A DNA stretch of 16,949 nt, taken from a virus. Lineage: Duplodnaviria > Heunggongvirae > Uroviricota > Caudoviricetes. Of this stretch, positions 3,883-16,933 are shown piece by piece. The position numbers and the translations under genes are program-made. How positions within the stretch are numbered: position 1 is the first letter of the stretch; each line of letters begins with the position of its first letter. The notes beneath the pieces are model-generated. The model ran no database searches and was not told where the DNA came from. It was given only the letters and a program-made list of their open reading frames with translations. Location of the stretch: IMG/VR virus record IMGVR_UViG_2534681675_000024; one strand, 5' to 3'.

Positions 3883-4054
3883 GCCGACAGGAACACCACA
3901 ACCACAAAAACGCTACAAAGATGCCCACGGAGCACTCGTTACTGTCGAAAGCGTGTCTCACAACCGAGTGACGTTTTATCGCGACGGGTATCAATCGCCA
4001 TGCGTACAACCGCTGGCGCGTTTCATGAAGGAGTTCGCGGAGGTTAACCAATGA
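3875..4054 (+). CDS. Small hypothetical protein (59 aa)
   Basis: ATG at 3875 overlaps the antirepressor stop (ATGTTTAA), and its own stop overlaps the ATG at 4051. No domain recognised. Confidence 0.45.
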   Translation: MFKPTGTPQPQKRYKDAHGALVTVESVSHNRVTFYRDGYQSPCVQPLARFMKEFAEVNQ

Positions 4055-5082
4055 TACCCGTCCAGAAGAAGACATTTTCACTGGCTGGTATGTCTCCAAA
4101 ATCCAGCAATATGACGGCAAAGTCAGGCATTAATACAGCAGATACAAGCAAAGTTTATCATTTGCTGGTGGTCGGAACGGATGCCTTAACCATGCCAGAA
4201 ATCTCGGGCGATGATATTAGCGTTGAGAAGGTCAGCGGCTGCGCCAGAGAATTTCTGGTCGTAGATGACCTGTTCTGCTCGCGTAGTGACTCCACAAAAA
4301 TCTTCGTCCACGCGCGTGACGTTAACGAAATGAGCGCGATGTACTGTGCTTCTGGTGCTTCCAATAGCGAGTTTTCGGAGTCCATAAAAAAGAGCTTGCC
4401 GTTATGCGGCAACACGGTTTATGGTTATAAGGCACCTCATAAAACGGGTGCCGGGATTGGCCTCCCGCTGGAGTTATCGGCGATACATGACGCGCCAGCG
4501 TCTTTTTTTGTATCGGCGCACACGCACACCTTATCAATGGTGGGCTGTATGGGGCTACCTTCGGGTAGGCTGGTTTCCGATAACGCCAGTAAGGCCAACT
4601 CCGTACAGTCCACCGCCAGCAAGATTGGTCTCTTCTGCGGTGGTTATAACAAGCCAACGTTATCGGAGGATGCCACATGCTGGCTACTACCCCTACCCAA
4701 AAACCGCAATTTATCTGGATTATCGCCGCAGTTCGCCGCGATTGCCCGACAATTACCGCCAAAATTCATCATATTGCTGCCGAGTCTGAACGCGATGCTC
4801 GCCGTTCTCTGGTGCGCGATCACGTCTGCTTTTTTGCTGGTCGTATCCGCATGGAGGTGGCACATGATTAAAACCTACGATGTGCATATGGACCCCCTCG
4901 AACGCACAAGCCAGATCATCACACTGACAGAAGTGATTAATGACATTCTGGTGAGCAACTCTCCCTCACGAGACGAAAAACTGAAGGCGTTACTCGCGAT
5001 ATTGGATCTCGCCGTTCGTGACGTTCATTTCCTGCTGGAAGGTGGCGAAATGCCAGTAAAACGGGGGGCAACCAATGAATAA
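4051..5082 (+). CDS. Uncertain long ORF (343 codons); possibly several short genes or a partly non-coding leader
   Basis: The frame is open for 343 codons and has a good SD (GGAGG, 7 nt before ATG 4051). However, the first ~270 residues are unusually Ser/Cys/Trp-rich, the frame contains a terminator-like hairpin plus T7 run (4489-4509), and two internal starts have strong SDs: 4677 in another frame (GGAGGA) and 4864 in-frame (GGAGGTGG). Confidence 0.35.
4489..4509 (+). terminator. Terminator-like hairpin (GACGC-GCCA-GCGTC) followed by T7
   Basis: A 5-bp GC stem with a 4-nt loop is followed immediately by TTTTTTT. The stem is short, so function is uncertain. It lies inside the dubious 4051-5082 ORF. 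Confidence 0.3.
4864..5082 (+). CDS. Small hypothetical protein (72 aa), alternative in-frame start within the 4051-5082 ORF
   Basis: A strong SD (GGAGGTGG, 4853-4860) sits 3 nt before ATG 4864. The downstream sequence has ordinary helical-protein composition, and its stop overlaps the next start (ATGAATAA at 5075). Confidence 0.4.
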   Translation: MIKTYDVHMDPLERTSQIITLTEVINDILVSNSPSRDEKLKALLAILDLAVRDVHFLLEGGEMPVKRGATNE

Positions 5083-9113: not shown

Positions 9114-9840
9114 CTATTGCATACCGCAGGGAATGACCAGAACGGAGCGCGAAGAATTAAAAAGTTTCGCTACACAGTGCGGGAATGCTGGCGACATCCA
9201 AAGTCTGGAACGCACTTTAATTATGATTGCGCACTGGATGCGTCAGGGGCAAAGGGTTTCATTTACTGAATATGCCAGCCAGTGGACAGAGGCACAGCGC
9301 GAACGGAGCGACGGTAATCACTCAACACCCGAAATGGCGAAGCAATGGCCTTTCAGTGGTAAACGCTGTATCAGTCCCGGTGGTTCAGATTATTACCCTG
9401 CTGGTGTGGGAGATGAGCCATGTTGTGACGAGACTGAAATCCGCCACGCAGTGACAGTAATTACCGCTGAATACCCACAATTTAACCTTGACGGACTGGC
9501 GCTCCACAACCGGAATGCGGACTGGGAAAACCCGCTTGATAACCCGTCATTTATCGTATCGGCGAAAAGCTGCCTGAGATGGATCAGAGACAACGGGATG
9601 AGTAATGCCCAGATTGAGAGCTTCCCGCAGGATAACCCCACATCTGACACGTTGAAGCATGAAGTGGAGCGATATAACCAGATAAACCACCAGCACAGTG
9701 ATCACCCGCACTATATCCCCAACGGAGCATTTATTGCGGCGATGGTGGCAAGCGGCTACAAGGTTAAGCCAGCGGGAAGAATGAACGCATTTTTCAATAT
9801 TTCAAAAAAGGGATTATGTGCTGCTATGGGTAAAAATTAA
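9103..9840 (+). CDS. Hypothetical protein (245 aa)
   Basis: SD GAGAGG before ATG 9103, coupled to the upstream gene. Protein-like composition, no recognisable domain. Confidence 0.7.
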   Translation: MNNNYCIPQGMTRTEREELKSFATQCGNAGDIQSLERTLIMIAHWMRQGQRVSFTEYASQWTEAQRERSDGNHSTPEMAKQWPFSGKRCISPGGSDYYPAGVGDEPCCDETEIRHAVTVITAEYPQFNLDGLALHNRNADWENPLDNPSFIVSAKSCLRWIRDNGMSNAQIESFPQDNPTSDTLKHEVERYNQINHQHSDHPHYIPNGAFIAAMVASGYKVKPAGRMNAFFNISKKGLCAAMGKN

Positions 9841-9845
9841 ATAAA

Positions 9846-9949
9846 TGGTACAGGTCTGTACAGGTGGGGAGAGGTCATTTTTACCCACCTGTACCACCTA
9901 CAGGCCGCGTCACACAAGGGTTTGTGACATGGTGGTACAGGTGGTACAG
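9846..9949. repeat. Iteron-like repeat cluster 2 (same family as cluster 1) plus a GTCACA-N8-TGTGAC palindrome
   Basis: TGGTACAGGT at 9846-9855, CTGTACAGGTGG at 9856-9867, ACCTGTACCACCTA at 9887-9900, and tandem inverted GGTGGTACAGGTGGTACAG at 9931-9949. A palindrome GTCACACAAGGGTTTGTGAC lies at 9909-9928. TTTTTACC precedes the repeat in both clusters. Confidence 0.6.
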
Positions 9950-10314
9950 CAAAAACAGCGATTTTCTTTATAAGGTATGTTTTGCTCATCTGGCAGGCGG
10001 AGGTATTCGCTGCGGTTTGGCACATAGCCCAGAACAGCAAAGAGTTTTACGAGACTTTTGTAAAATCCAGTGTACAAGGGCGTGACGTTTTTGAAGGAGA
10101 GACCTACGAAATTTTCGTAGTTCAAAAAATAGCCTCTGAGATGTTGTTATGCCTGTTCAGCAAACCATCCGCATAGCTGATCGCGAATCAAATTACCAAT
10201 GGAGCCAGAAGCAAGGGCAGAACTGGAAAGCGCCTGCCGTGAAGAGTAATGCGACATCGTAAATATAGTTTTTAGAGTCCATAAAAAACCTGTCAAAACC
10301 TGACATACAGAACG

Positions 10315-10442: not shown

Positions 10443-10616
10443 ATGGCTATTTCAGTAAAGCCAGTATTGATAAGTGAGAAGCAAATGGAAGCGATAAAGA
10501 AAATTCAGGAGGAGCAGCGTAAAAAATCAGAGGTAGGAGTTGCGCCAACGATCCACGAAATTGCTCGGGGATTAATGGATAAGGCGCTGGCTTACACTTT
10601 AACTGGACGTGGGTAA
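10443..10616 (+). CDS. Small hypothetical protein (57 aa), first gene of a three-gene operon
   Basis: Not in the supplied ORF track (below its length threshold). ATG 10443 is preceded by a strong SD (AAGGGGG). The stop at 10614-10616 lies 4 nt before the next ATG (10621). Helical composition; a regulatory role is only a guess. Confidence 0.5.
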
Positions 10617-10620
10617 ATTT

Positions 10621-12087
10621 ATGGCTACTTGGCAACAAGGAATCAACTCAGGCGGTTTTCTGGCTGGCATCGGTACGCAAAATGAGAATGCGCCAAAGGC
10701 AAGCGACATTAACGCAACGCTTGGTCTGATCCGCGAAAACAATGAACTGGCTCGCTCAGGTGCAAATAACGTTGGTCTGACCGCGTTACGTGGTCTGGCT
10801 GGAGTTGCTGATATTTATAAGCAGGAACAGCAACAGAAAGCGATTAATGCGTTCAATAAGGTTCACGCTGATGCATGGGCTTCTGGTGATCCATCGGGAC
10901 TATTTAAGTTTGCCCAGGAAAATCCAGCGTTTGTTGCACAGGTACAACAGGCGTTTTCTGGTCTTAATGATCAGCAACGCAACGATATGGGCGATTTAGC
11001 CATGAGGGCTAACGTCGCTCTTTCTCAGGGACCGGAAGCCTACAGTAAATTCATTACTGACAACAAGGACAGGTTAAATCGCGTTGGTGCTAATGCTGAC
11101 TGGATGATTCAGACAGGTATCCAGAATCCAGAGCAGCTATCACACATGCTGACTACTATGTCTCTCGGTGCGCTTGGACCAGAAAAGGCGTTTGCTGTTC
11201 AGGATAAGATGGTTGGTCGTGAGATTGACCGAGGCCAGCTGGCAGAGACAATCCGCAGCAATAAGGCTGGAGAGGCACTTCAGGCGAGAGGGCAGGATAT
11301 TAGCCGAGCAAATGCGTTAACGTCAGCATATGCACCAACAGCCGCAATGCAGAATTACAATCAGTACGCGCAAATGTTAAAGGCGGACCCAGAGGGGGCG
11401 GCGGCATTTGCGGCAGCGGCTGGAATTAATACAAACGCCAAAAAATTAATGAGTGTTAGAGAAAACGATGATGGCACTGTCACAAAATACTACACAGACG
11501 GAAGTGAAGAGCAGGGAAAACTAAACCAGCCAATATCTGGAGATGGGTTTCGTCCAATAGCTTTGCCAACAGCCCAAAAGATCATGGAAAAGTCGCCAGA
11601 AGGGGCTAAAAAAGCTGCTGGATTTGCATACAGGGTTAGGGATGCTCTTGATTCAATAGATACACTGAAAGACCAGCTTAGCCCACAGCGAGTGGCGATC
11701 ATTAATAATGCTTTGGGTAATGGGACGCTGGCTAACTTAACGCTCAGCCCAGCAGAGCAGCAATACGTTGTTAATGCTAATGACGCAATAATGGCAATAC
11801 TCCGTCAGGAAACAGGGGCATCTATCCTACCAGCTGAAATGTCCAAATATTATCAAATGTATTTCCCTCAGCCTGGTGATTCCACAAAAACCATTGATAC
11901 CAAGCGCCGGAAGATGGAAAACCAGTTCAATTCGCTGAAAGCTGCTTCTGGTCGAGCTTATGATGCTTTGCGGGTTATTTCAGCAGTTGACAGAGGAACT
12001 TCTTCTTCGTCGCAGACATTGCCGCAATCTGAGCAGGTATCACAGCCAGCAGCCAGCAGTAATTTTTCTTCACTATGGGGTGATTAA
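10621..12087 (+). CDS. Large hypothetical protein (488 aa), Cys-free, Ala/Gln/Asn/Gly-rich, predicted mostly alpha-helical
   Basis: ATG 10621 chosen over the track's 10609. No Cys, few aromatics, Q/A-rich low-complexity stretches, and no enzymatic motif I can identify. Its stop overlaps the next start (TAATG). Confidence 0.8.
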
Positions 12088-14192
12088 TGGCTAAAGCATG
12101 GAAAGATGTTATCGCTTCTCCACAGTATCAGGCGTTAGCACCAGAACAAAAAGCGCAGGCTCAGGAGCAATACTTCAATGAAGTCGTGGCCCCGCAAGCC
12201 GGAGAAAGTGTAGAGCAGGCTAAGCAGGCTTTTTATGCTGCCTATCCACTACCATCAACGAATGAAATAAACCGATCCCAATCAGCAACTCAAAATATTC
12301 AACATACATCATCTGATAATTCTCTTGCGTCAGGGTATGCAAAGTTAGCTACTCAGCAAAGAGAGGGGCTTGAGCGTTCAGCAGAACAGGGAGCCAGTCT
12401 TGGGGCTGCGATGCGCGATGCTATAACAGGCGAAAGCCGAATGACTCCAGAGATGGAGAGACTGCAAAATGTCGACCTTGCCCCAGAGTTAACCTCACTC
12501 AGCATGGATGCTCTAAAAGCTCGATGGTCTCAACTTTTCGGCTCTGACGCATCTCAGGAAAAGATTCTTCAGAGCATGGGAGCGAAATTAAGGCAGGATG
12601 AGAAGGGTAACACTATCGTTTCCCTGCCATCCGGTGATTATGCTCTGAACAAGCCGGGTTTATCGCCGCAAGACGTGGCATCGTTTCTGGCTAATGCGCT
12701 GGCGTTTACACCAGCGGGCAGGGCTGGAACGGTGCTTGGTGCCATAGGAAAATCAGCAGCTACAGATTTAGCACTACAGGGAGCCACCAGCCTTGCTGGT
12801 GGAGAAGATATTGATCCGTTACAAACGGTAATTTCTGCTGGCATTGGTGGTATTGGTAAGGGGCTGGAAAATACAGCGAGTGCGGTTTCGAGGGCTGTTC
12901 GTGGTGATATGTCGCCTGAAGCAAAGGCTGCTGTCGACTTTGCATCGGAAAGAAATCTGCCGTTAATGACCAGTGACATGCTGAAAGATAAAACCTTTAT
13001 GCAGAGTCAGGCTCAGACATTAGGCGAAAGAGTTCCTTTTTTTGGAACCGGTAAGAATCGGCTGAATCAACAACAAGCACGAGAAAATTTAGTCAGAACA
13101 TTTAGCGATGGTCTGGGGGGAATTTCAGATAAACAGCTTTATGAGTCTGCGACTAAAGGGCAGCAAAAATTCATTGAGGCAGCAGGAAAGCGATATAACC
13201 GCATAATTGACGCTATGGGGGATACCCCTGTCGATCTCTCAAACACGGTAAAAACTATCGACAATCAGATTGCCGTGTTAAGCCGCCCTGGCAAATCTCA
13301 GGATAGAGCCGCGGTAAAAGTCTTGCAGCAATTTAAAGACGATATCACCAGCGGACCAAATGACCTGCGTCTGGCGAGGGAAAACAGAACCGATCTTCGA
13401 AAGCGATTTATAGCGTCATCTGACACTGTTGATAAAGATACGCTCCAGAAAGCCAGCGATATTATCTACAAGGCATATACGGCGGATATGAAAAAAGCCG
13501 TAGCCAAAAATCTTGGAGCAGACGAAGCCATTAATATGGCAAGGGTTGATCGCTCATGGTCTAAATTCAATGACATGATGGGAAGAACGCGCGTTCAAAA
13601 GGCAATAGCCAGCGGCAAGGCCACGCCTGAGGATGTAACAAAACTCGTTTTTAGCCAAAGCCCATCAGAACGTTCTCAGCTTTACAGGCTTCTGGATGAC
13701 AATGGTAGGCAAAACGCACGAGCAGCTATAGTTCAGAATGCTGTAGATAAGGCGACTGATCCGTCTGGAAATATCAGTGTTGAGAAGTTTATTAATGCGT
13801 TACACCGGAACAGGAAGCAATCAGCAACTTTCTTTAAAGGCGTACATGGAAAGGAACTGGACGGCGTTATTAAATACCTCAACGATACAAGACACGCGGC
13901 AAAAGCGAACGTTCAAAACTTAAATGGTCAGCAGCTTTATGGATTGTTAGTTGGTGGTGGCATCATAAACGCAGCAGTATTAGCGGGGATGCTAAAAACG
14001 GCTGCGTTTGTTGTTCCTGCTGCTGGTGCCGTAGGCGGAGCAGCGAAGGCATACGAAAGCCCTGTTATACGAAATGCCTTGTTACGTCTGGCAAATACGC
14101 CAAAAGGTAGCACAGCATATGACAGAGCGATCAGTACGGTCACACAATCGCTCACCAGAGTCGCACAGGCATCACAAAAAGAATCTCAATAA
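12087..14192 (+). CDS. Large hypothetical protein (701 aa), Cys-free, helical, with a C-terminal Gly/Ala-rich hydrophobic hairpin
   Basis: Long uninterrupted ORF coupled to the upstream gene. The segment LYGLLVGGGIINAAVLAGMLKTAAFVVPAAGAVGGAAKAY (about nt 13934-14056) looks like a membrane-insertion hairpin. GIGKG and GAIGKS do not fit true Walker A spacing. Confidence 0.85.
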   Translation: MAKAWKDVIASPQYQALAPEQKAQAQEQYFNEVVAPQAGESVEQAKQAFYAAYPLPSTNEINRSQSATQNIQHTSSDNSLASGYAKLATQQREGLERSAEQGASLGAAMRDAITGESRMTPEMERLQNVDLAPELTSLSMDALKARWSQLFGSDASQEKILQSMGAKLRQDEKGNTIVSLPSGDYALNKPGLSPQDVASFLANALAFTPAGRAGTVLGAIGKSAATDLALQGATSLAGGEDIDPLQTVISAGIGGIGKGLENTASAVSRAVRGDMSPEAKAAVDFASERNLPLMTSDMLKDKTFMQSQAQTLGERVPFFGTGKNRLNQQQARENLVRTFSDGLGGISDKQLYESATKGQQKFIEAAGKRYNRIIDAMGDTPVDLSNTVKTIDNQIAVLSRPGKSQDRAAVKVLQQFKDDITSGPNDLRLARENRTDLRKRFIASSDTVDKDTLQKASDIIYKAYTADMKKAVAKNLGADEAINMARVDRSWSKFNDMMGRTRVQKAIASGKATPEDVTKLVFSQSPSERSQLYRLLDDNGRQNARAAIVQNAVDKATDPSGNISVEKFINALHRNRKQSATFFKGVHGKELDGVIKYLNDTRHAAKANVQNLNGQQLYGLLVGGGIINAAVLAGMLKTAAFVVPAAGAVGGAAKAYESPVIRNALLRLANTPKGSTAYDRAISTVTQSLTRVAQASQKESQ

Positions 14193-14211
14193 CTGGTTAG
14201 CCATGGATGGC

Positions 14212-14826
14212 TTAAATATCTCTGCTGTCTCCATTAGGAAATAAAAGATAATATGGATTTGCCTTTCTTGCTCTCCTTGCTTCACCTGGATACCTGTTAG
14301 TCAGTAGCTTGCATAATGAGCAGAGAACAACACTCAAGAAAATTCCGAATGAGAAGATCAATATCTCACCAAAAATCAATGGCGATATTAAATTTTCAGG
14401 ATTTAATGATAAGTCAATGTTAAAAACATATTGAGCAATACCAGTAAGTATCAATAATATAATCCCTATGGAATACATTGCTGTTTCCCAAACATCAGAC
14501 AGTCTATTTTTGAATTTTTCGCTGGAGTAGTAGTTTGTTATAAAGTCAGAAAAATCACTCTCATATGCATCATCTTTAGGTGATGTTAGAAATCCTCTGT
14601 CTCTCCATACCTTCTCCCAATTAGTCGATTCTTTTTTTAAGGAAAAATAAATATGTATTGCCAAAAGGATAGCCAAAATTGGTGTTAGCTCTAAAAAATA
14701 GAATGTTATGGAATAAATAATACTGCCATGTTCAAACTCATCTGGGACTATCATGTATGCACAAAAATAAATTGAAAAGTACACCATGCAGATAGTTAGC
14801 AATTCTTTAGTATCTTTTCTGCTCAC
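14212..14826 (-). CDS. Integral membrane protein (about 204 aa, four predicted TM helices), strongly AT-rich
   Basis: Four hydrophobic stretches of about 20 residues each, with a basic C-terminal tail (RRARK). GTG start at 14826 is preceded by SD AAGGGGG; an alternative ATG is at 14787. The gene is markedly AT-rich relative to its neighbours and converges on the 701-aa gene with only 19 bp between stops. Confidence 0.8.
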   Translation of the reverse strand: MSRKDTKELLTICMVYFSIYFCAYMIVPDEFEHGSIIYSITFYFLELTPILAILLAIHIYFSLKKESTNWEKVWRDRGFLTSPKDDAYESDFSDFITNYYSSEKFKNRLSDVWETAMYSIGIILLILTGIAQYVFNIDLSLNPENLISPLIFGEILIFSFGIFLSVVLCSLCKLLTNRYPGEARRARKANPYYLLFPNGDSRDI

Positions 14827-15007: not shown

Positions 15008-15036
15008 CAATTTCGTGACCAGTACGCGCGCGAGGG
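15008..15036 (+). repeat. Repeat family copy 1 (CAATTTCGTGACCAGTACGCGCGCGAGGG)
   Basis: About 29 nt with a CGCGCGCG core; matches copy 4 (16904-16933) at roughly 23 of 29 positions. Confidence 0.6.
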
Positions 15037-15041
15037 GTATC

Positions 15042-15063
15042 AGTTGCAAAAAATTTTGCAACT
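15042..15063. repeat. Near-perfect palindrome AGTTGCAAAAAATTTTGCAACT between repeat copies 1 and 2
   Basis: 9-bp arms GTTGCAAAA / TTTTGCAAC. A related palindrome GTGCAAATTTGCAC lies at 16746-16759. Confidence 0.5.
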
Positions 15064-15065
15064 AC

Positions 15066-15094
15066 GTCCGACCAGTACGCGCACGATGGAGGGG
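15066..15094 (+). repeat. Repeat family copy 2 (GACCAGTACGCGCACGATGGAGGGG)
   Basis: Shares GACCAGTACGCGC-CGA---GGGG with copy 1. Confidence 0.55.
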
Positions 15095-15295
15095 AGTACC
15101 ATAAAACTGTTCTCTACATGAGACAGAGTGGTGGTGATGTGTTGATTATCGGCGTATATGCGCACAGGACGCGCTATGACGATGTTTTATGCGGGTACAC
15201 CAATCACATGTATCTGGTGTGATAAATCGCGTTACATGACATCTCATGTTGTGCTGGTGATTATCACGACGTTCTGAATCTGGCCTTTGCCTGAT

Positions 15296-15322
15296 ATTTT
15301 GCGACAAGTACGCGCGCGTAGC
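15296..15322 (+). repeat. Repeat family copy 3 (TTTTGCGACAAGTACGCGCGCGTAGC)
   Basis: Same GAC-AGTACGCGCGCG core. A weaker partial copy (CATTTTGTGACCAATGCG) lies at about 15349-15366. Confidence 0.55.
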
Positions 15323-15346: not shown

Positions 15347-15547
15347 TCATTTTGTGACCAATGCGATAAGTAGCGGGATAAGAATTGATAAAATCAACAG
15401 GACGATGATCCACTTTTGATTCTCGTCCATCTTATCTGCTAGGCGACGCTCCATTCCGTGCATATCACCGCGAATGGCAATCATCTCATTGCGAACATCC
15501 GAGAAGTGGTTGGCTTGATGTTCAATGTGTGGCGTTCTGCCTTTCAT
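15347..15547 (-). CDS. Small C-terminally anchored membrane protein (66 aa), XhlA/holin-like topology
   Basis: ATG at 15547 with SD GAGGA about 7 nt upstream. Polar, charged N-terminal half followed by a single C-terminal TM helix (WIIVLLILSILIPLLIALV). The family call is tentative. Confidence 0.6.
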   Translation of the reverse strand: MKGRTPHIEHQANHFSDVRNEMIAIRGDMHGMERRLADKMDENQKWIIVLLILSILIPLLIALVTK

Positions 15548-15626
15548 GTCTGATCCTCACCTATCGTCACCACCTGCTGGTGTATAAAGGTATTAGCCCA
15601 AGCAGCTTTCCAATGGGCACTCATGT

Positions 15627-16082
15627 TTATACGCTGACCTTACAATCAATCACCGCTTTTAACTTTTCAGCATTGCTTCCCTGACGCTTCCACGCGCTGT
15701 AAATATCTTTATCCCACGCTTTACCAGCTTTTGTTTGATAGCCTGCTTCATTGATCCGTTCAGCTATCACACGCCCATTATCAAATCCCTGTTGGATGGT
15801 ATCGGCAATGATCTTTATAACTGCCGTTTCGTTATATGGTTTTGGTGGGATGTTCGGCTTTCCGGCAATAAGCGACGCAGCGGCTTTTTCCATGCGCTCC
15901 ACCAGCCCAAGCATTCGTGAATCAATAGACTTTTCCGGCTGCCCCAGCTTCATGCGAATCGCATCAACAAGCCAAGAGGTTTTATCTCCTCCAGAAGCGA
16001 GAACAGACCGATTAAACTCATCCTGCAATTCAGATGGGATGCGGAACGCGATCAGATTAGATTTGCTCATTGCAAAGACCAT
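15627..16082 (-). CDS. Ribbon-helix-helix (Arc/CopG-like) DNA-binding protein with a C-terminal recombinase-like helical domain (151 aa)
   Basis: The N-terminus has a classic RHH pattern (LIAFRIPSELQDEFNRSVLASGGDKTSWLVDAIRMKL). The C-terminal segment GRVIAERINEAGYQTKAGKAWDKDIYSAWKR resembles the recombinase-domain motif of serine recombinases, but there is no catalytic domain. Start could be 16082 or 16070; no clear SD. Confidence 0.7.
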   Translation of the reverse strand: MVFAMSKSNLIAFRIPSELQDEFNRSVLASGGDKTSWLVDAIRMKLGQPEKSIDSRMLGLVERMEKAAASLIAGKPNIPPKPYNETAVIKIIADTIQQGFDNGRVIAERINEAGYQTKAGKAWDKDIYSAWKRQGSNAEKLKAVIDCKVSV

Positions 16083-16183
16083 ATCAGTGAGTAATATCCA
16101 TACAGTATACCACTGTATAACACTGTTATACGCTCAAATATCAGCCAGAAAATAACAGACCAATCACAAATCTATCGCTGTGT

Positions 16184-16306
16184 TGTTGGTTCAGAGCTGG
16201 GCTGTGTTGGTTCAAAATGAGTTGATGTTGGTTCAATATTTTAGAAAAAACACAATAAAAACAACGCTCTTTACAAATTGAACCAACTGAACCAACTGAA
16301 CCAACA
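16184..16306. promoter_or_regulatory. Operator/iteron array: three TGTTGGTTCA direct repeats at 21-bp spacing plus three tandem inverted TGAACCAAC copies
   Basis: Direct copies at 16184-16193, 16205-16214 and 16226-16235. After an AT-rich spacer, TGAACCAAC repeats sit at 16279-16287, 16288-16296 and 16297-16305. A TATAAT hexamer at 16323-16328 and SD GAGAGG precede the perC-like ATG. Confidence 0.7.
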
Positions 16307-16341
16307 CCTTTTTGCTTATCTATATAATCTGAGAGGCAGAA

Positions 16342-16629: not shown

Positions 16630-16903
16630 TGCTCTCTCTGTTTTGGCAAATTACCCCTCACTTTGAAGGGATCGGAGCTATAAAAATGGTGTTATCCGGC
16701 TTCCTCAAATTGAGGATTGTGGAAGAATCAATGGGTTAGGTCATCGTGCAAATTTGCACTCTGCCAGCCAACGCAATTTCTCGTTGGCGGAAATATCAGG
16801 TATTTACTGAACGAACGGTCTACCAGTCTGTTCAGTTACCAGTTGCACATGGCTGTTTCATGTGAGAACGGAGGTTTTTTTCGGACATCGCTATTGGGTA
16901 CAG

Positions 16904-16933
16904 CAATTTCACGAGCAATACGCGCGCGCAGGA
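16904..16933 (+). repeat. Repeat family copy 4 (CAATTTCACGAGCAATACGCGCGCGCAGG)
   Basis: Close match to copy 1 at 15008-15036. It sits at the window edge, where a short minus-strand ORF appears to start at 16949. Confidence 0.55.

What the first reader, a model, noticed from the sequence alone, without database searches (positions are those of the whole stretch)
15347..15547. Small tail-anchored membrane protein with holin/XhlA-like topology next to the repeat region
A 66-aa protein with a charged, coiled N-terminal half and a single C-terminal TM helix, with a good SD. Such proteins in prophage regions are often lysis effectors or small membrane toxins. Its 3' end abuts repeat copy 3 and the degenerate copy.
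Basis: inference. Interest (0 to 1): 0.4.

Follow-up and report, generated by a model that had tools for sequence, protein, structure and literature searches.

The report
Truncated XhlA-like phage membrane protein
The 66-residue gene is real, but it is the shortened leftover of a small phage membrane protein distantly related to the Bacillus lysis helper XhlA, sitting at the edge of a captured P22-like phage fragment inside an E. coli satellite island, where its neighbours point to phage-versus-phage defence, not cell lysis.

Summary
The ORF exists as described: minus strand, 15347-15547, GAGGA 6 nt before the ATG, N-terminal helix, one C-terminal membrane helix. It is a genuine gene: PHROG phrog_6324 E=3e-15, homologues in Enterobacteriaceae, dN/dS 0.17-0.30, and present in 176 of 5,426 complete E. 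coli genomes.

It is a cut-down copy. Phage-borne relatives are 100-118 aa, with an extra N-terminal peptide and a glycine linker. Here that upstream frame holds stop codons, so only the short form can be made.

Relatives repeatedly hit Pfam XhlA over the whole profile but always below the curated cut-off. The window protein itself gets no Pfam hit. "XhlA-like" therefore holds as distant homology and architecture, not as curated membership.

Context argues against holin or lysis. In 45 of 47 long-form viral loci the gene follows a zinc-ribbon partner (phrog_4293). The pair occupies the P22 sieA slot or the HK97 gp15 slot, both known for membrane superinfection-exclusion genes. No lysis gene is nearby. 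The window lacks the partner.

Best reading: an orphan short isoform, probably read through from the upstream regulator gene, with a role in the membrane in phage conflict. It may instead be a relic. Function is untested and interest is modest.

The parts
15347..15547 (-). 66-aa ORF (stop codon 15347-15349): short form of the phrog_6324 / XhlA-like tail-anchored membrane protein family
15353..15409 (-). codons 47-65, the single C-terminal transmembrane helix IIVLLILSILIPLLIALVT
   Evidence: hydropathy; AF2 helix 42-65; the most conserved part of the family
15554..15558 (-). Shine-Dalgarno GAGGA, 6 nt before the ATG. It corresponds to the GGAGG formed by glycine-linker codons in the long phage-borne forms
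15548..15580 (-). decayed remnant of the long-form reading frame (…YTPAGGDDR*GSD-M). The in-frame TGA at 15557-15559 interrupts what is the glycine linker in phage copies
   Evidence: tblastn alignment with the 111-aa phage form runs to 15580 through the stop; in-frame translations
15581..15659 (.). junction between the captured P22-like fragment and the satellite backbone. Homology to the phage gene ends at 15580; homology to the Salmonella island starts at 15660
15627..16082 (-). 151-aa upstream gene in the same orientation, 79 nt before the ORF. Probable Arc/ribbon-helix-helix-type regulator of the satellite backbone and likely source of read-through transcription
   Evidence: one source names a 74%-identical homologue 'Arc-like DNA binding domain protein'; coil then two helices at the N-terminus, low-confidence model. 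No Pfam hit; no BLASTP similarity to a P22-like Mnt
15349..15365 (+). half-copy of the island repeat overlapping the ORF's last five codons and two bases of the stop codon
15296..15318 (+). repeat copy 3 (contains the palindrome TACGCGCGCGTA), 28 nt downstream of the ORF's stop
15010..15085 (+). repeat copies 1 and 2 (cores 15017-15032 and 15070-15085) flanking the near-palindrome GTTGCAAAAAATTTTGCAAC
14212..14826 (-). 204-aa multi-pass membrane protein, SieA-like, next gene downstream on the same strand
   Evidence: phrog_7745 'SieA-like' E=2e-4. C-terminal NRYPGEA fits the published SieA motif FxRYPxEAxxFNK (PMC10883804)

Best explanation
The ORF encodes a small inner-membrane protein. It has an N-terminal helix of about 35 residues, predicted to be cytoplasmic and to form a coiled coil, and it is held in the membrane by a single C-terminal helix (tail-anchored). 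It belongs to a narrow enterobacterial phage family, PHROG phrog_6324, which is a distant branch of the XhlA-like proteins.

In phages the gene is 100-118 aa long. The extra part is an N-terminal aromatic peptide, a glycine linker, and an in-frame ATG preceded by GGAGG at exactly the point where the window ORF starts. The phage gene is paired with a zinc-ribbon protein (phrog_4293). The pair forms a moron cassette next to Arc/Mnt/Ant immunity genes. In P22-like phages this is the sieA slot between genes 16 and 9. In siphophages it lies just upstream of the tape-measure gene, the HK97 gp15 slot.

The window copy is the right-hand edge of a P22-like fragment (gp20, gp16, SieA-like gene, this gene) captured between the primase operon and the regulator gene of a satellite-like island inserted between yicC and dinD. 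The capture removed the partner gene, the third cassette gene and the N-terminal peptide. Only the short form can now be made, from the retained SD and ATG, probably by read-through from the 151-aa regulator gene upstream.

Shown here: gene reality, family, truncation, loss of partners, genomic position. Inferred: topology, co-transcription, natural use of the internal start, and function. For function I commit to a membrane-level role in phage-versus-phage conflict (blocking entry, or membrane permeabilisation on infection), not canonical host lysis. In this orphan copy that activity may be reduced or deregulated.
For: Family and coding status:
- phrog_6324 E=3.3e-15.
- 37 homologues, all Enterobacteriaceae where named.
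- Only 48 hits at E<=1e-3 among 1.84 billion representatives.
- dN/dS 0.17-0.30.
- 176 of 5,426 complete E. coli genomes carry the region. All 27 full-coverage rows and the one 94%-coverage row of the 30 sampled are annotated as CDS.

XhlA link:
- 13 of 16 members hit PF10779, best E=5.9e-5, profile positions 2-66 of 67.
- The family profile finds P0060 at E=5.8e-5 over the whole library. P0060 carries a precomputed PF10779 annotation.
- hhalign gives 98.4% probability, with a shared DK.D.N.KW motif before the TM.

Truncation:
- The alignment with the 111-aa form runs through an in-frame TGA.
- Partner and third gene are absent from the window.

Cassette and slots:
- P22-like prophages have the order mnt, phrog_4293, phrog_6324, third gene, converging on gene 16.
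- SPN3UB and a Klebsiella siphophage carry the cassette upstream of the tape-measure gene.
- Of 69 IMG/VR loci, 47 are long forms and 45 of those have the partner directly upstream. The 22 short or tiny forms all lack it.
- All 47 long forms have an ATG after the linker with GGAGG 4-8 nt upstream.

Known occupants of the slots are inner-membrane exclusion proteins: P22 SieA (PMC10883804) and HK97 gp15 (PMC3594210). An XhlA-domain gene next to cI in Mannheimia prophages shows that non-lysis placement occurs elsewhere (PMC4553209).

Backbone versus cargo: the Salmonella relative shares only the regulator gene and the iteron region.
Against: - No experiment on any member of the family is known to me, and none was found in the papers read. 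The functional claim rests on position and distant homology.
- The window protein gets no Pfam, NCBIfam or PADLOC hit.
- All XhlA scores are below the gathering cut-off, and coiled-coil plus TM composition can inflate such scores.
- The hhalign target set was seeded from this family's own profile search, so that comparison is not independent.
- The dN/dS signal among island alleles may be imported. L011's TM segment and L001's 7-codon insertion match phage alleles, so selection may have acted in phages and not in the island.
- The copy lacks its usual partner and N-terminal peptide.
- No promoter or terminator was predicted around it, so expression is assumed.
- GGAGG arises easily by chance in runs of glycine codons, so the internal-start idea is only suggestive.
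Confidence: 0.5

Rival explanations
1. Non-functional relic. The ORF is simply the surviving 3' two-thirds of a phage gene cut at a recombination junction. It is still open because the event is recent and because recombination with phage alleles keeps refreshing it. It has no selected role in the island.
For: The upstream frame has decayed, with three stops in the 33 codons before the ATG. Partner and third gene are lost. The ORF lies at the junction between captured fragment and backbone. Frameshifted or shortened variants exist in databases (P0014, P0016, P0031, P0033, P0036). Tiny 35-aa remnants occur in viral contigs. Island allele differences coincide with phage alleles.
Against: The 66 codons are open, while the 33 codons just upstream carry three stops in all three island alleles examined. 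The SD and ATG are retained. Intact forms dominate: clusters of 152 and 32 member sequences against 1-3 for most broken ones. Of 176 complete E. coli genomes with a match, 168 carry the region at 80% coverage or more. In all 28 rows at 94% coverage or more of the 30 sampled it is annotated as a CDS, not a pseudogene. Independent short forms of 60-80 aa are also kept in phage genomes.
Confidence: 0.3
2. Lysis accessory or holin-like effector. Like XhlA of Bacillus prophage PBSX, it would cooperate with a holin and endolysin, or itself permeabilise the membrane, to lyse the host.
For: Recurrent sub-threshold XhlA matches. phrog_689 'holin' reaches 1.4e-8 and phrog_1193 'hemolysin' reaches 1.9e-5 for phage-borne homologues. 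PBSX xhlA is required together with xhlB and xlyA for lysis and vesicle release (PMC5589764). The third cassette gene gives weak Rz-like spanin hits (E about 1e-3), and SPN3UB has a lipoprotein gene next to it.
Against: No endolysin or holin gene is named in the scans of ten window ORFs or in the annotation of the near-identical island L001. None lies within 4-8 kb of the homologues in three annotated phage types. In P22-like prophages the gene sits downstream of mnt, in a region expressed from the prophage (PMC10883804), where a lytic effector would be harmful. The protein ends two residues after the TM, so it lacks the charged C-terminal tail typical of holins. Below the Pfam threshold; no direct hit for the window protein.
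Confidence: 0.1
3. Type I-like small membrane toxin controlled by an antisense RNA, acting as an addiction or stress module of the island.
For: Small hydrophobic protein on a mobile element. One promoter-like site on the opposite strand (15236-15264) would read antisense into the ORF's 3' end.
Against: That promoter-like site is within chance expectation: 4 found against 6.6 expected. Rfam finds no RNA family in or near the ORF at E<=1. The gene lies 79 nt behind another gene on the same strand, not behind its own promoter and long leader. A 45-residue hydrophilic domain is unusual for type I toxins. The family lives in multi-gene phage cassettes.
Confidence: 0.05

Closest known systems
XhlA of Bacillus subtilis prophage PBSX and Pfam PF10779 (Haemolysin XhlA)
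   Same: Size class. N-terminal coiled-coil helix followed by one C-terminal TM. Conserved D-K-x-D-x-N-x-K/R-W motif just before the TM. Recurrent full-length profile matches. Phage-borne.
   Different: All scores are below Pfam's gathering cut-off, and the window protein has no direct hit. The family is Gram-negative and is not next to a holin or endolysin. Its partner is a zinc-ribbon protein. Long forms carry an extra N-terminal peptide, a glycine linker and an internal SD/ATG.
PHROG phrog_6324 (unknown function), e.g. Salmonella phage SPN3UB gp25 and Klebsiella phage ST101-KPC2phi6.1 QBP28408
   Same: Direct family membership (E=3.3e-15). Identical C-terminal LFIALVTK/LLIALVTK end.
   Different: The window copy lacks the N-terminal 35-45 residues, the phrog_4293 partner and the third gene. 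It sits in a satellite-like island, not in a phage.
P22 SieA superinfection exclusion protein
   Same: Same genomic slot in P22-like prophages, between gene 16 and gene 9 (PMC10883804). Predicted inner-membrane location. A SieA-like gene is the next gene downstream in the window.
   Different: No sequence similarity. SieA is a multi-pass protein of about 160-200 aa. The SieA mechanism (block of the gp16/gp20 conduit) has been shown, whereas nothing has been shown for this family.
HK97 gp15 moron (YebO-like) superinfection exclusion protein
   Same: Small single-TM inner-membrane protein encoded by a moron immediately upstream of the tape-measure gene (PMC3594210). This is the position of the siphophage copies of this family.
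   Different: No sequence similarity was detected in the protein and family searches run here. gp15 is a single gene and not part of a zinc-ribbon pair. Topology and family differ.
Dual-start holins (lambda S105/S107 type)
   Same: Small phage membrane protein with a possible second in-frame start giving two isoforms.
   Different: The starts are about 40 codons apart, not 2. There is no adjacent endolysin and no charged C-terminal tail. Use of the internal start is unproven.

Membership tests
PHROG phrog_6324 | significant match to the family profile over most of its length | tested here: met
   E=3.3e-15, residues 12-66 on profile positions 39-90 of 94. Phage homologues reach 2.6e-29 to 4.9e-37.
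Pfam PF10779 XhlA | score at or above the curated gathering cut-off (34.7 bits) | tested here: not met
   The window protein has no hit at E<=0.1 or E<=1. The 23 relatives with an XhlA hit, of 29 scanned individually, score 14-33 bits; the best, 33.1, is the distant relative P0060.
Pfam PF10779 XhlA | homology detectable by profile methods (superfamily level) | tested here: inconclusive
   13 of 16 members hit XhlA as the top or near-top family. hhalign gives 98.4% against a set containing two PF10779-annotated proteins. That set was seeded from this family's own search, and coiled-coil/TM bias cannot be excluded.
Pfam PF10779 XhlA | architecture: short protein, coiled-coil N-part, single C-terminal TM | tested here: met
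XhlA as lysis-cassette component (PBSX xhlA-xhlB-xlyA) | adjacent holin and endolysin genes | tested here: not met
   None named among the ten window ORFs scanned or in the annotation of the near-identical island L001. None in the flanks of phage-borne homologues.
XhlA as lysis-cassette component | required for host lysis | not testable with these tools
   needs expression and deletion experiments
Holins | hydrophilic, charged C-terminal tail after the last TM, and linkage to an endolysin | tested here: not met
   The hydrophobic helix (residues 47-65, ending in T) is followed by a single residue, K. No endolysin is linked.
Type I toxin-antitoxin | cis-encoded antisense RNA and own promoter/leader | tested here: inconclusive
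   No Rfam family near the ORF. Promoter-like sites are not above chance. The gene follows another gene at 79 nt. An uncatalogued antisense RNA cannot be excluded without RNA-seq.
Superinfection exclusion morons (SieA, HK97 gp15) - functional class, not a sequence family | prophage-expressed inner-membrane protein in the gene16-gene9 slot or the slot upstream of the tape-measure gene | tested here: met
   Position shown. The slots are defined in PMC10883804 and PMC3594210. Membrane location is predicted only.
Superinfection exclusion morons | blocks infection or DNA entry of incoming phage | not testable with these tools
   needs plating and potassium-efflux assays
Known anti-phage defence systems (PADLOC-DB) | match to any catalogued defence protein model | tested here: not met
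   no hit at E<=1 for this ORF or its neighbours

The most novel reading that the evidence does not exclude
The zinc-ribbon protein (phrog_4293) plus the XhlA-like tail-anchored protein (phrog_6324) form an undescribed two-gene prophage defence module. It would replace sieA in P22-like phages and occupy the gp15 slot in siphophages. The long form would carry an N-terminal regulatory peptide on a glycine tether, and a conserved internal start would make a short, partner-independent isoform. The window ORF would then be that short isoform fixed as a stand-alone gene in a satellite island.
Probability: 0.25. Interest if true: 0.55.

Novelty: new member of a known kind. Interest (0 to 1): 0.27.

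Why it matters
By itself the ORF is a minor, uncharacterised accessory gene. Its value is as a pointer in three directions. First, it shows that XhlA-like proteins, known from Gram-positive lysis cassettes, have an enterobacterial branch. That branch sits in lysogeny and immunity-associated moron slots already known to hold membrane exclusion genes. Second, it exposes a conserved, untested gene pair (zinc-ribbon plus XhlA-like) as a candidate exclusion or abortive-infection module. Third, it marks the edge of a P22-like fragment carrying ejection proteins and a SieA-like gene that was captured by a satellite island. If the module proves to be a defence system, it would add a small, easily tested membrane effector class to prophage-encoded immunity.

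Tried and rejected
- Direct Pfam, NCBIfam and PADLOC scans of the 66-aa protein gave nothing usable. The NCBIfam TIGR04402 hit at E=0.13 was ignored.
- Foldseek of the AF2 model against BFVD gave no match. A two-helix model is uninformative, so the PDB search was not run.
- tblastn for the cassette partners (Mnt, phrog_4293, phrog_5962) in the window found them absent.
- Rfam at E<=1 over the whole window found nothing near the ORF, only C4 and isrK at 4432-4620.
- The promoter/terminator scan gave no terminator, and promoter-like sites were below chance expectation.
- BLASTP of the 151-aa upstream protein against a P22-like Mnt showed no similarity. A PDB sequence search gave nothing. The AF2 model had pLDDT 54.6, too poor for a fold search. 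'Arc/RHH-like' therefore rests on a source name for a homologue and the N-terminal secondary-structure pattern.
- An exact scan of 185,579 genomes for GTGACCAGTACGCGCGCG gave chance hits in high-GC genomes plus one Leclercia island. It did not explain the repeat.
- I considered that the repeats are decayed 3' ends of further copies of this gene. No protein-level similarity was found around them, so this remains unresolved.
- I read the C4 RNA sequence by eye for complementarity to the repeat and found nothing convincing.
- P0017 (Leclercia) could not be located on a contig.

Full report
**Observation**

The window has an ATG-to-TGA ORF at 15347..15547 on the minus strand. It encodes 66 aa: MKGRTPHIEHQANHFSDVRNEMIAIRGDMHGMERRLADKMDENQKWIIVLLILSILIPLLIALVTK. 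A GAGGA lies 6 nt before the ATG. Residues 47-65 form the only hydrophobic stretch (mean Kyte-Doolittle 3.19), and a single residue follows it. Residues 1-45 are charged, with 8 K+R, 8 D+E and 4 H. AlphaFold2, run with a 16-sequence alignment, gives helix 6-39, a break at 40-41 and helix 42-65 at mean pLDDT 79.6.

Length alone would not make it a gene, because the window has 111 ORFs of 40 aa or more. The case rests on other evidence:
- It matches PHROG phrog_6324 at E=3.3e-15.
- It has 37 homologues in a 5.8-billion-protein database.
- Pairwise dN/dS against six homologues is 0.17-0.30.
- The region is present in 176 of 5,426 complete E. coli genomes. It is annotated as a CDS in all 27 full-coverage rows, and in the one 94%-coverage row, of the 30 sampled.

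**Where the window comes from**

The window is an island of about 17 kb inserted between yicC and dinD of E. coli. The att cores read GTGTACATA(A/G)(G/A)GGTGTACATAAT. Its gene order is:
- a tyrosine integrase, a small HTH protein, AntA/B, and a region with P4/P1-type C4 and isrK RNAs;
- a primase with DUF5906;
- P22-type ejection proteins gp20 and gp16, both full length;
- a SieA-like membrane protein on the minus strand (plus the published SieA motif);
- a 520-nt repeat-bearing spacer;
- the 66-aa ORF;
- a 151-aa gene, an iteron-like array, PerC, and a remnant of a roi/ant gene.

A related Salmonella island at the same chromosomal site shares only the 151-aa gene (window 15660-16131) and the iteron region (16184-16327). 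Those two features therefore belong to the satellite backbone. Everything from gp20 to the 66-aa ORF is cargo, inserted between the primase operon and the 151-aa gene.

**The ORF is a truncated copy**

Database homologues come in two sizes: short forms of 66-78 aa and long forms of 100-118 aa. The long forms add three things:
- about 35 N-terminal residues with a short aromatic motif (YDAxNxF, ADYPxF or VDFPKH);
- a glycine linker (GGGSGGGSD);
- a methionine at exactly the position where the window ORF starts.

tblastn of a 111-aa phage form against the window aligns back to 15580, passing through an in-frame TGA at 15557-15559. The upstream frame reads …YTPAGGDDR*GSD-M, where phage copies read …HGGGSGGGSD-M. 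The two other island alleles examined carry the same stops. So only the short form can be made here, and its SD is the remnant of the GGAGG formed by the glycine codons.

Among 69 related IMG/VR loci, 47 are long forms. All 47 have an in-frame ATG after the linker with GGAGG 4-8 nt upstream. This suggests that phages also make a short isoform. The inference is weak, however, because GGAGG arises easily in runs of glycine codons.

**Family and relation to XhlA**

The family is narrow. A profile search of 1.84 billion representative proteins gives only 48 hits at E<=1e-3.

The window protein itself has no Pfam hit. Its relatives do better:
- 13 of 16 relatives hit Pfam XhlA (PF10779). The best is E=5.9e-5 at 23.6 bits, covering profile positions 2-66 of 67.
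- Every score is below the 34.7-bit gathering cut-off.
- The family profile reaches P0060 at E=5.8e-5. P0060 scores 33.1 bits on XhlA locally and carries a precomputed PF10779 annotation.
- A profile-profile comparison with the P0060 group gives 98.4% probability, with a shared DK.D.N.KW motif before the TM. That target set was seeded from this family's own search, so the comparison is not independent.
- Phage-borne homologues also hit a PHROG annotated 'holin' (to 1.4e-8) and one annotated 'hemolysin'.

I conclude that this is a distant XhlA-like protein. It does not meet Pfam's criterion for membership.

**Context argues against lysis**

In complete P22-like prophages the gene lies in the order mnt, zinc-ribbon protein (phrog_4293), this gene, a third small membrane/coiled-coil gene, converging on gene 16. 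Arc, Ant and the tailspike lie on the other side. That is the position of sieA in P22. The SieA paper describes it as holding a prophage-expressed inner-membrane exclusion gene, present in only 22 of 66 sequenced P22-like phages (PMC10883804).

In Salmonella phage SPN3UB and Klebsiella phage ST101-KPC2phi6.1, the same phrog_4293 + phrog_6324 pair lies after Arc/Ant-type genes, just upstream of the tape-measure gene. That is the slot of the HK97 gp15 exclusion moron (PMC3594210).

Of the 47 long-form viral loci, 45 have the partner directly upstream. All 22 short or tiny forms lack it. No endolysin or holin appears in any of these flanks. None is named among the ten window ORFs scanned or in the annotation of the near-identical island L001.

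XhlA-domain genes outside lysis cassettes have a precedent: Mannheimia lambdoid prophages carry one next to cI (PMC4553209). In Bacillus PBSX, by contrast, xhlA works with the holin xhlB and the endolysin xlyA (PMC5589764).

**How it most likely works**

Shown: the gene is real, it is a member of phrog_6324, it is truncated, it has lost its partners, and it sits at the cargo/backbone junction at 15581-15659.

Inferred:
- It inserts into the inner membrane by its C-terminal helix, with the helical N-part in the cytoplasm. It has no signal sequence and only one residue beyond the TM.
- It oligomerises through the coiled coil.
- It is transcribed by read-through from the 151-aa gene 79 nt upstream. 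No terminator was predicted in between. That gene is probably an Arc/RHH-type regulator, but the support is thin: a source name for a 74%-identical homologue and the N-terminal coil-helix-helix pattern of a low-confidence model.
- It acts at the membrane in phage-versus-phage conflict, not in host lysis.

I put this explanation at 0.5. The main rival, at 0.3, is that the island copy is a relic without function.

For retention of function:
- The 66 codons are open, while the 33 codons upstream carry three stops.
- Intact alleles dominate.

Against retention:
- Allele differences among islands coincide with phage alleles, so the purifying signal may be imported by recombination.
- The usual partner is missing.

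A lysis or holin role gets 0.1, and a type I toxin role gets 0.05.

**The repeats**

The 16-nt core GACCAGTACGCGCGCG occurs at 15017, 15070, 15303 and 16913, against 0.12 expected by chance. The left half of the repeat also matches 15349-15365, which is the ORF's last five codons plus two bases of the stop codon.

The repeats are found in E. coli island loci only. They are absent from P22-like prophages and from the Salmonella island. A Leclercia island has a 7-unit array of a related unit of about 30 nt, and one such unit lies at window 4281-4313. The copy at 16906 is about 95 nt from the attR core. Their function is unresolved, and they gave no terminator-like signal.

**Novelty and score**

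The ORF is a new, degraded member of an uncharacterised phage family distantly related to XhlA. RefSeq already annotates it as a hypothetical protein. The finding itself is of modest interest (0.27). The more interesting leads are the conserved zinc-ribbon + XhlA-like pair as a candidate exclusion module, and the island's capture of ejection-protein and SieA-like genes.

Noticed in passing
window 10609-14826: A satellite-like island (integrase, primase, C4-type immunity) carries full-length P22-type ejection protein genes gp20 (492 aa) and gp16 (701 aa), followed by a SieA-like membrane protein. Variants of the island also carry gp7 and gp14 homologues, or swap the SieA-like gene for a 131-aa gene (L011-L013). 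Published SieA escape mutations map to gp16 and gp20, so an exclusion gene kept next to its target proteins on a satellite is unusual.
   Followed up: partly
window 4432-4620: Rfam finds isrK (4432-4508, 64 bits) and a C4/P4-CI-type antisense RNA (4533-4620, 77 bits), both above gathering score. They lie inside an ORF that RefSeq annotates as a 343-aa 'ash family protein' (4051-5082). That CDS call may be wrong, or the RNAs are embedded in it.
   Followed up: no
window 16180-16305: Iteron-like array: three direct TGTTGGTTCA units, an AT-rich stretch, then three TGAACCAAC units in the opposite orientation, between the 151-aa gene and PerC. It is conserved in the Salmonella island (85% identity) and duplicated next to the primase gene in L012 (78% identity). 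It is absent from L013. Candidate replication origin or operator array.
   Followed up: partly
window 16095-16130: Two short palindromes directly upstream of the 151-aa gene: ATACAGT-ATACC-ACTGTAT and GTATAACA-C-TGTTATAC. They look like operators for a dimeric repressor. Read by eye only.
   Followed up: no
window 9807-10090: Cluster of GGTACAGG-type repeats and a degenerate att-like core (AAAATCCAGTGTACAAGGGCGTGAC, compared with the attR core). The same 234-nt segment sits between two att-like cores next to attR in L013. This suggests tandem integration or att-proximal rearrangement in the history of these islands.
   Followed up: partly
window 15010-15085, 15296-15318, 16906-16928; L112 1-260; window 4281-4313: The repeat ATTTCGTGACCAGTACGCGCGCG is specific to the E. 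coli islands. A related unit of about 30 nt forms a 7-copy array in a Leclercia island, and one unit lies upstream of isrK/C4 in the window. The near-palindrome GTTGCAAAAAATTTTGCAAC sits between copies 1 and 2. Function unknown.
   Followed up: partly
window 16681-16740: A 60-nt stretch 92-98% identical to the 5' end of roi/anti-repressor genes of many lambdoid and Stx phages, interrupted by a stop codon. This is a remnant of an ant/roi gene downstream of PerC.
   Followed up: no
L002 7643-8681; L007 4535-5938; L006 5526-6584: The conserved phrog_4293 partner is a soluble protein of about 120 aa with two CxxC pairs. The third gene of the cassette varies (phrog_5962, 21923, 19131). In P22-like prophages it is an N-terminally anchored coiled-coil protein with weak Rz-like spanin hits. 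SPN3UB adds a lipoprotein gene.
   Followed up: partly
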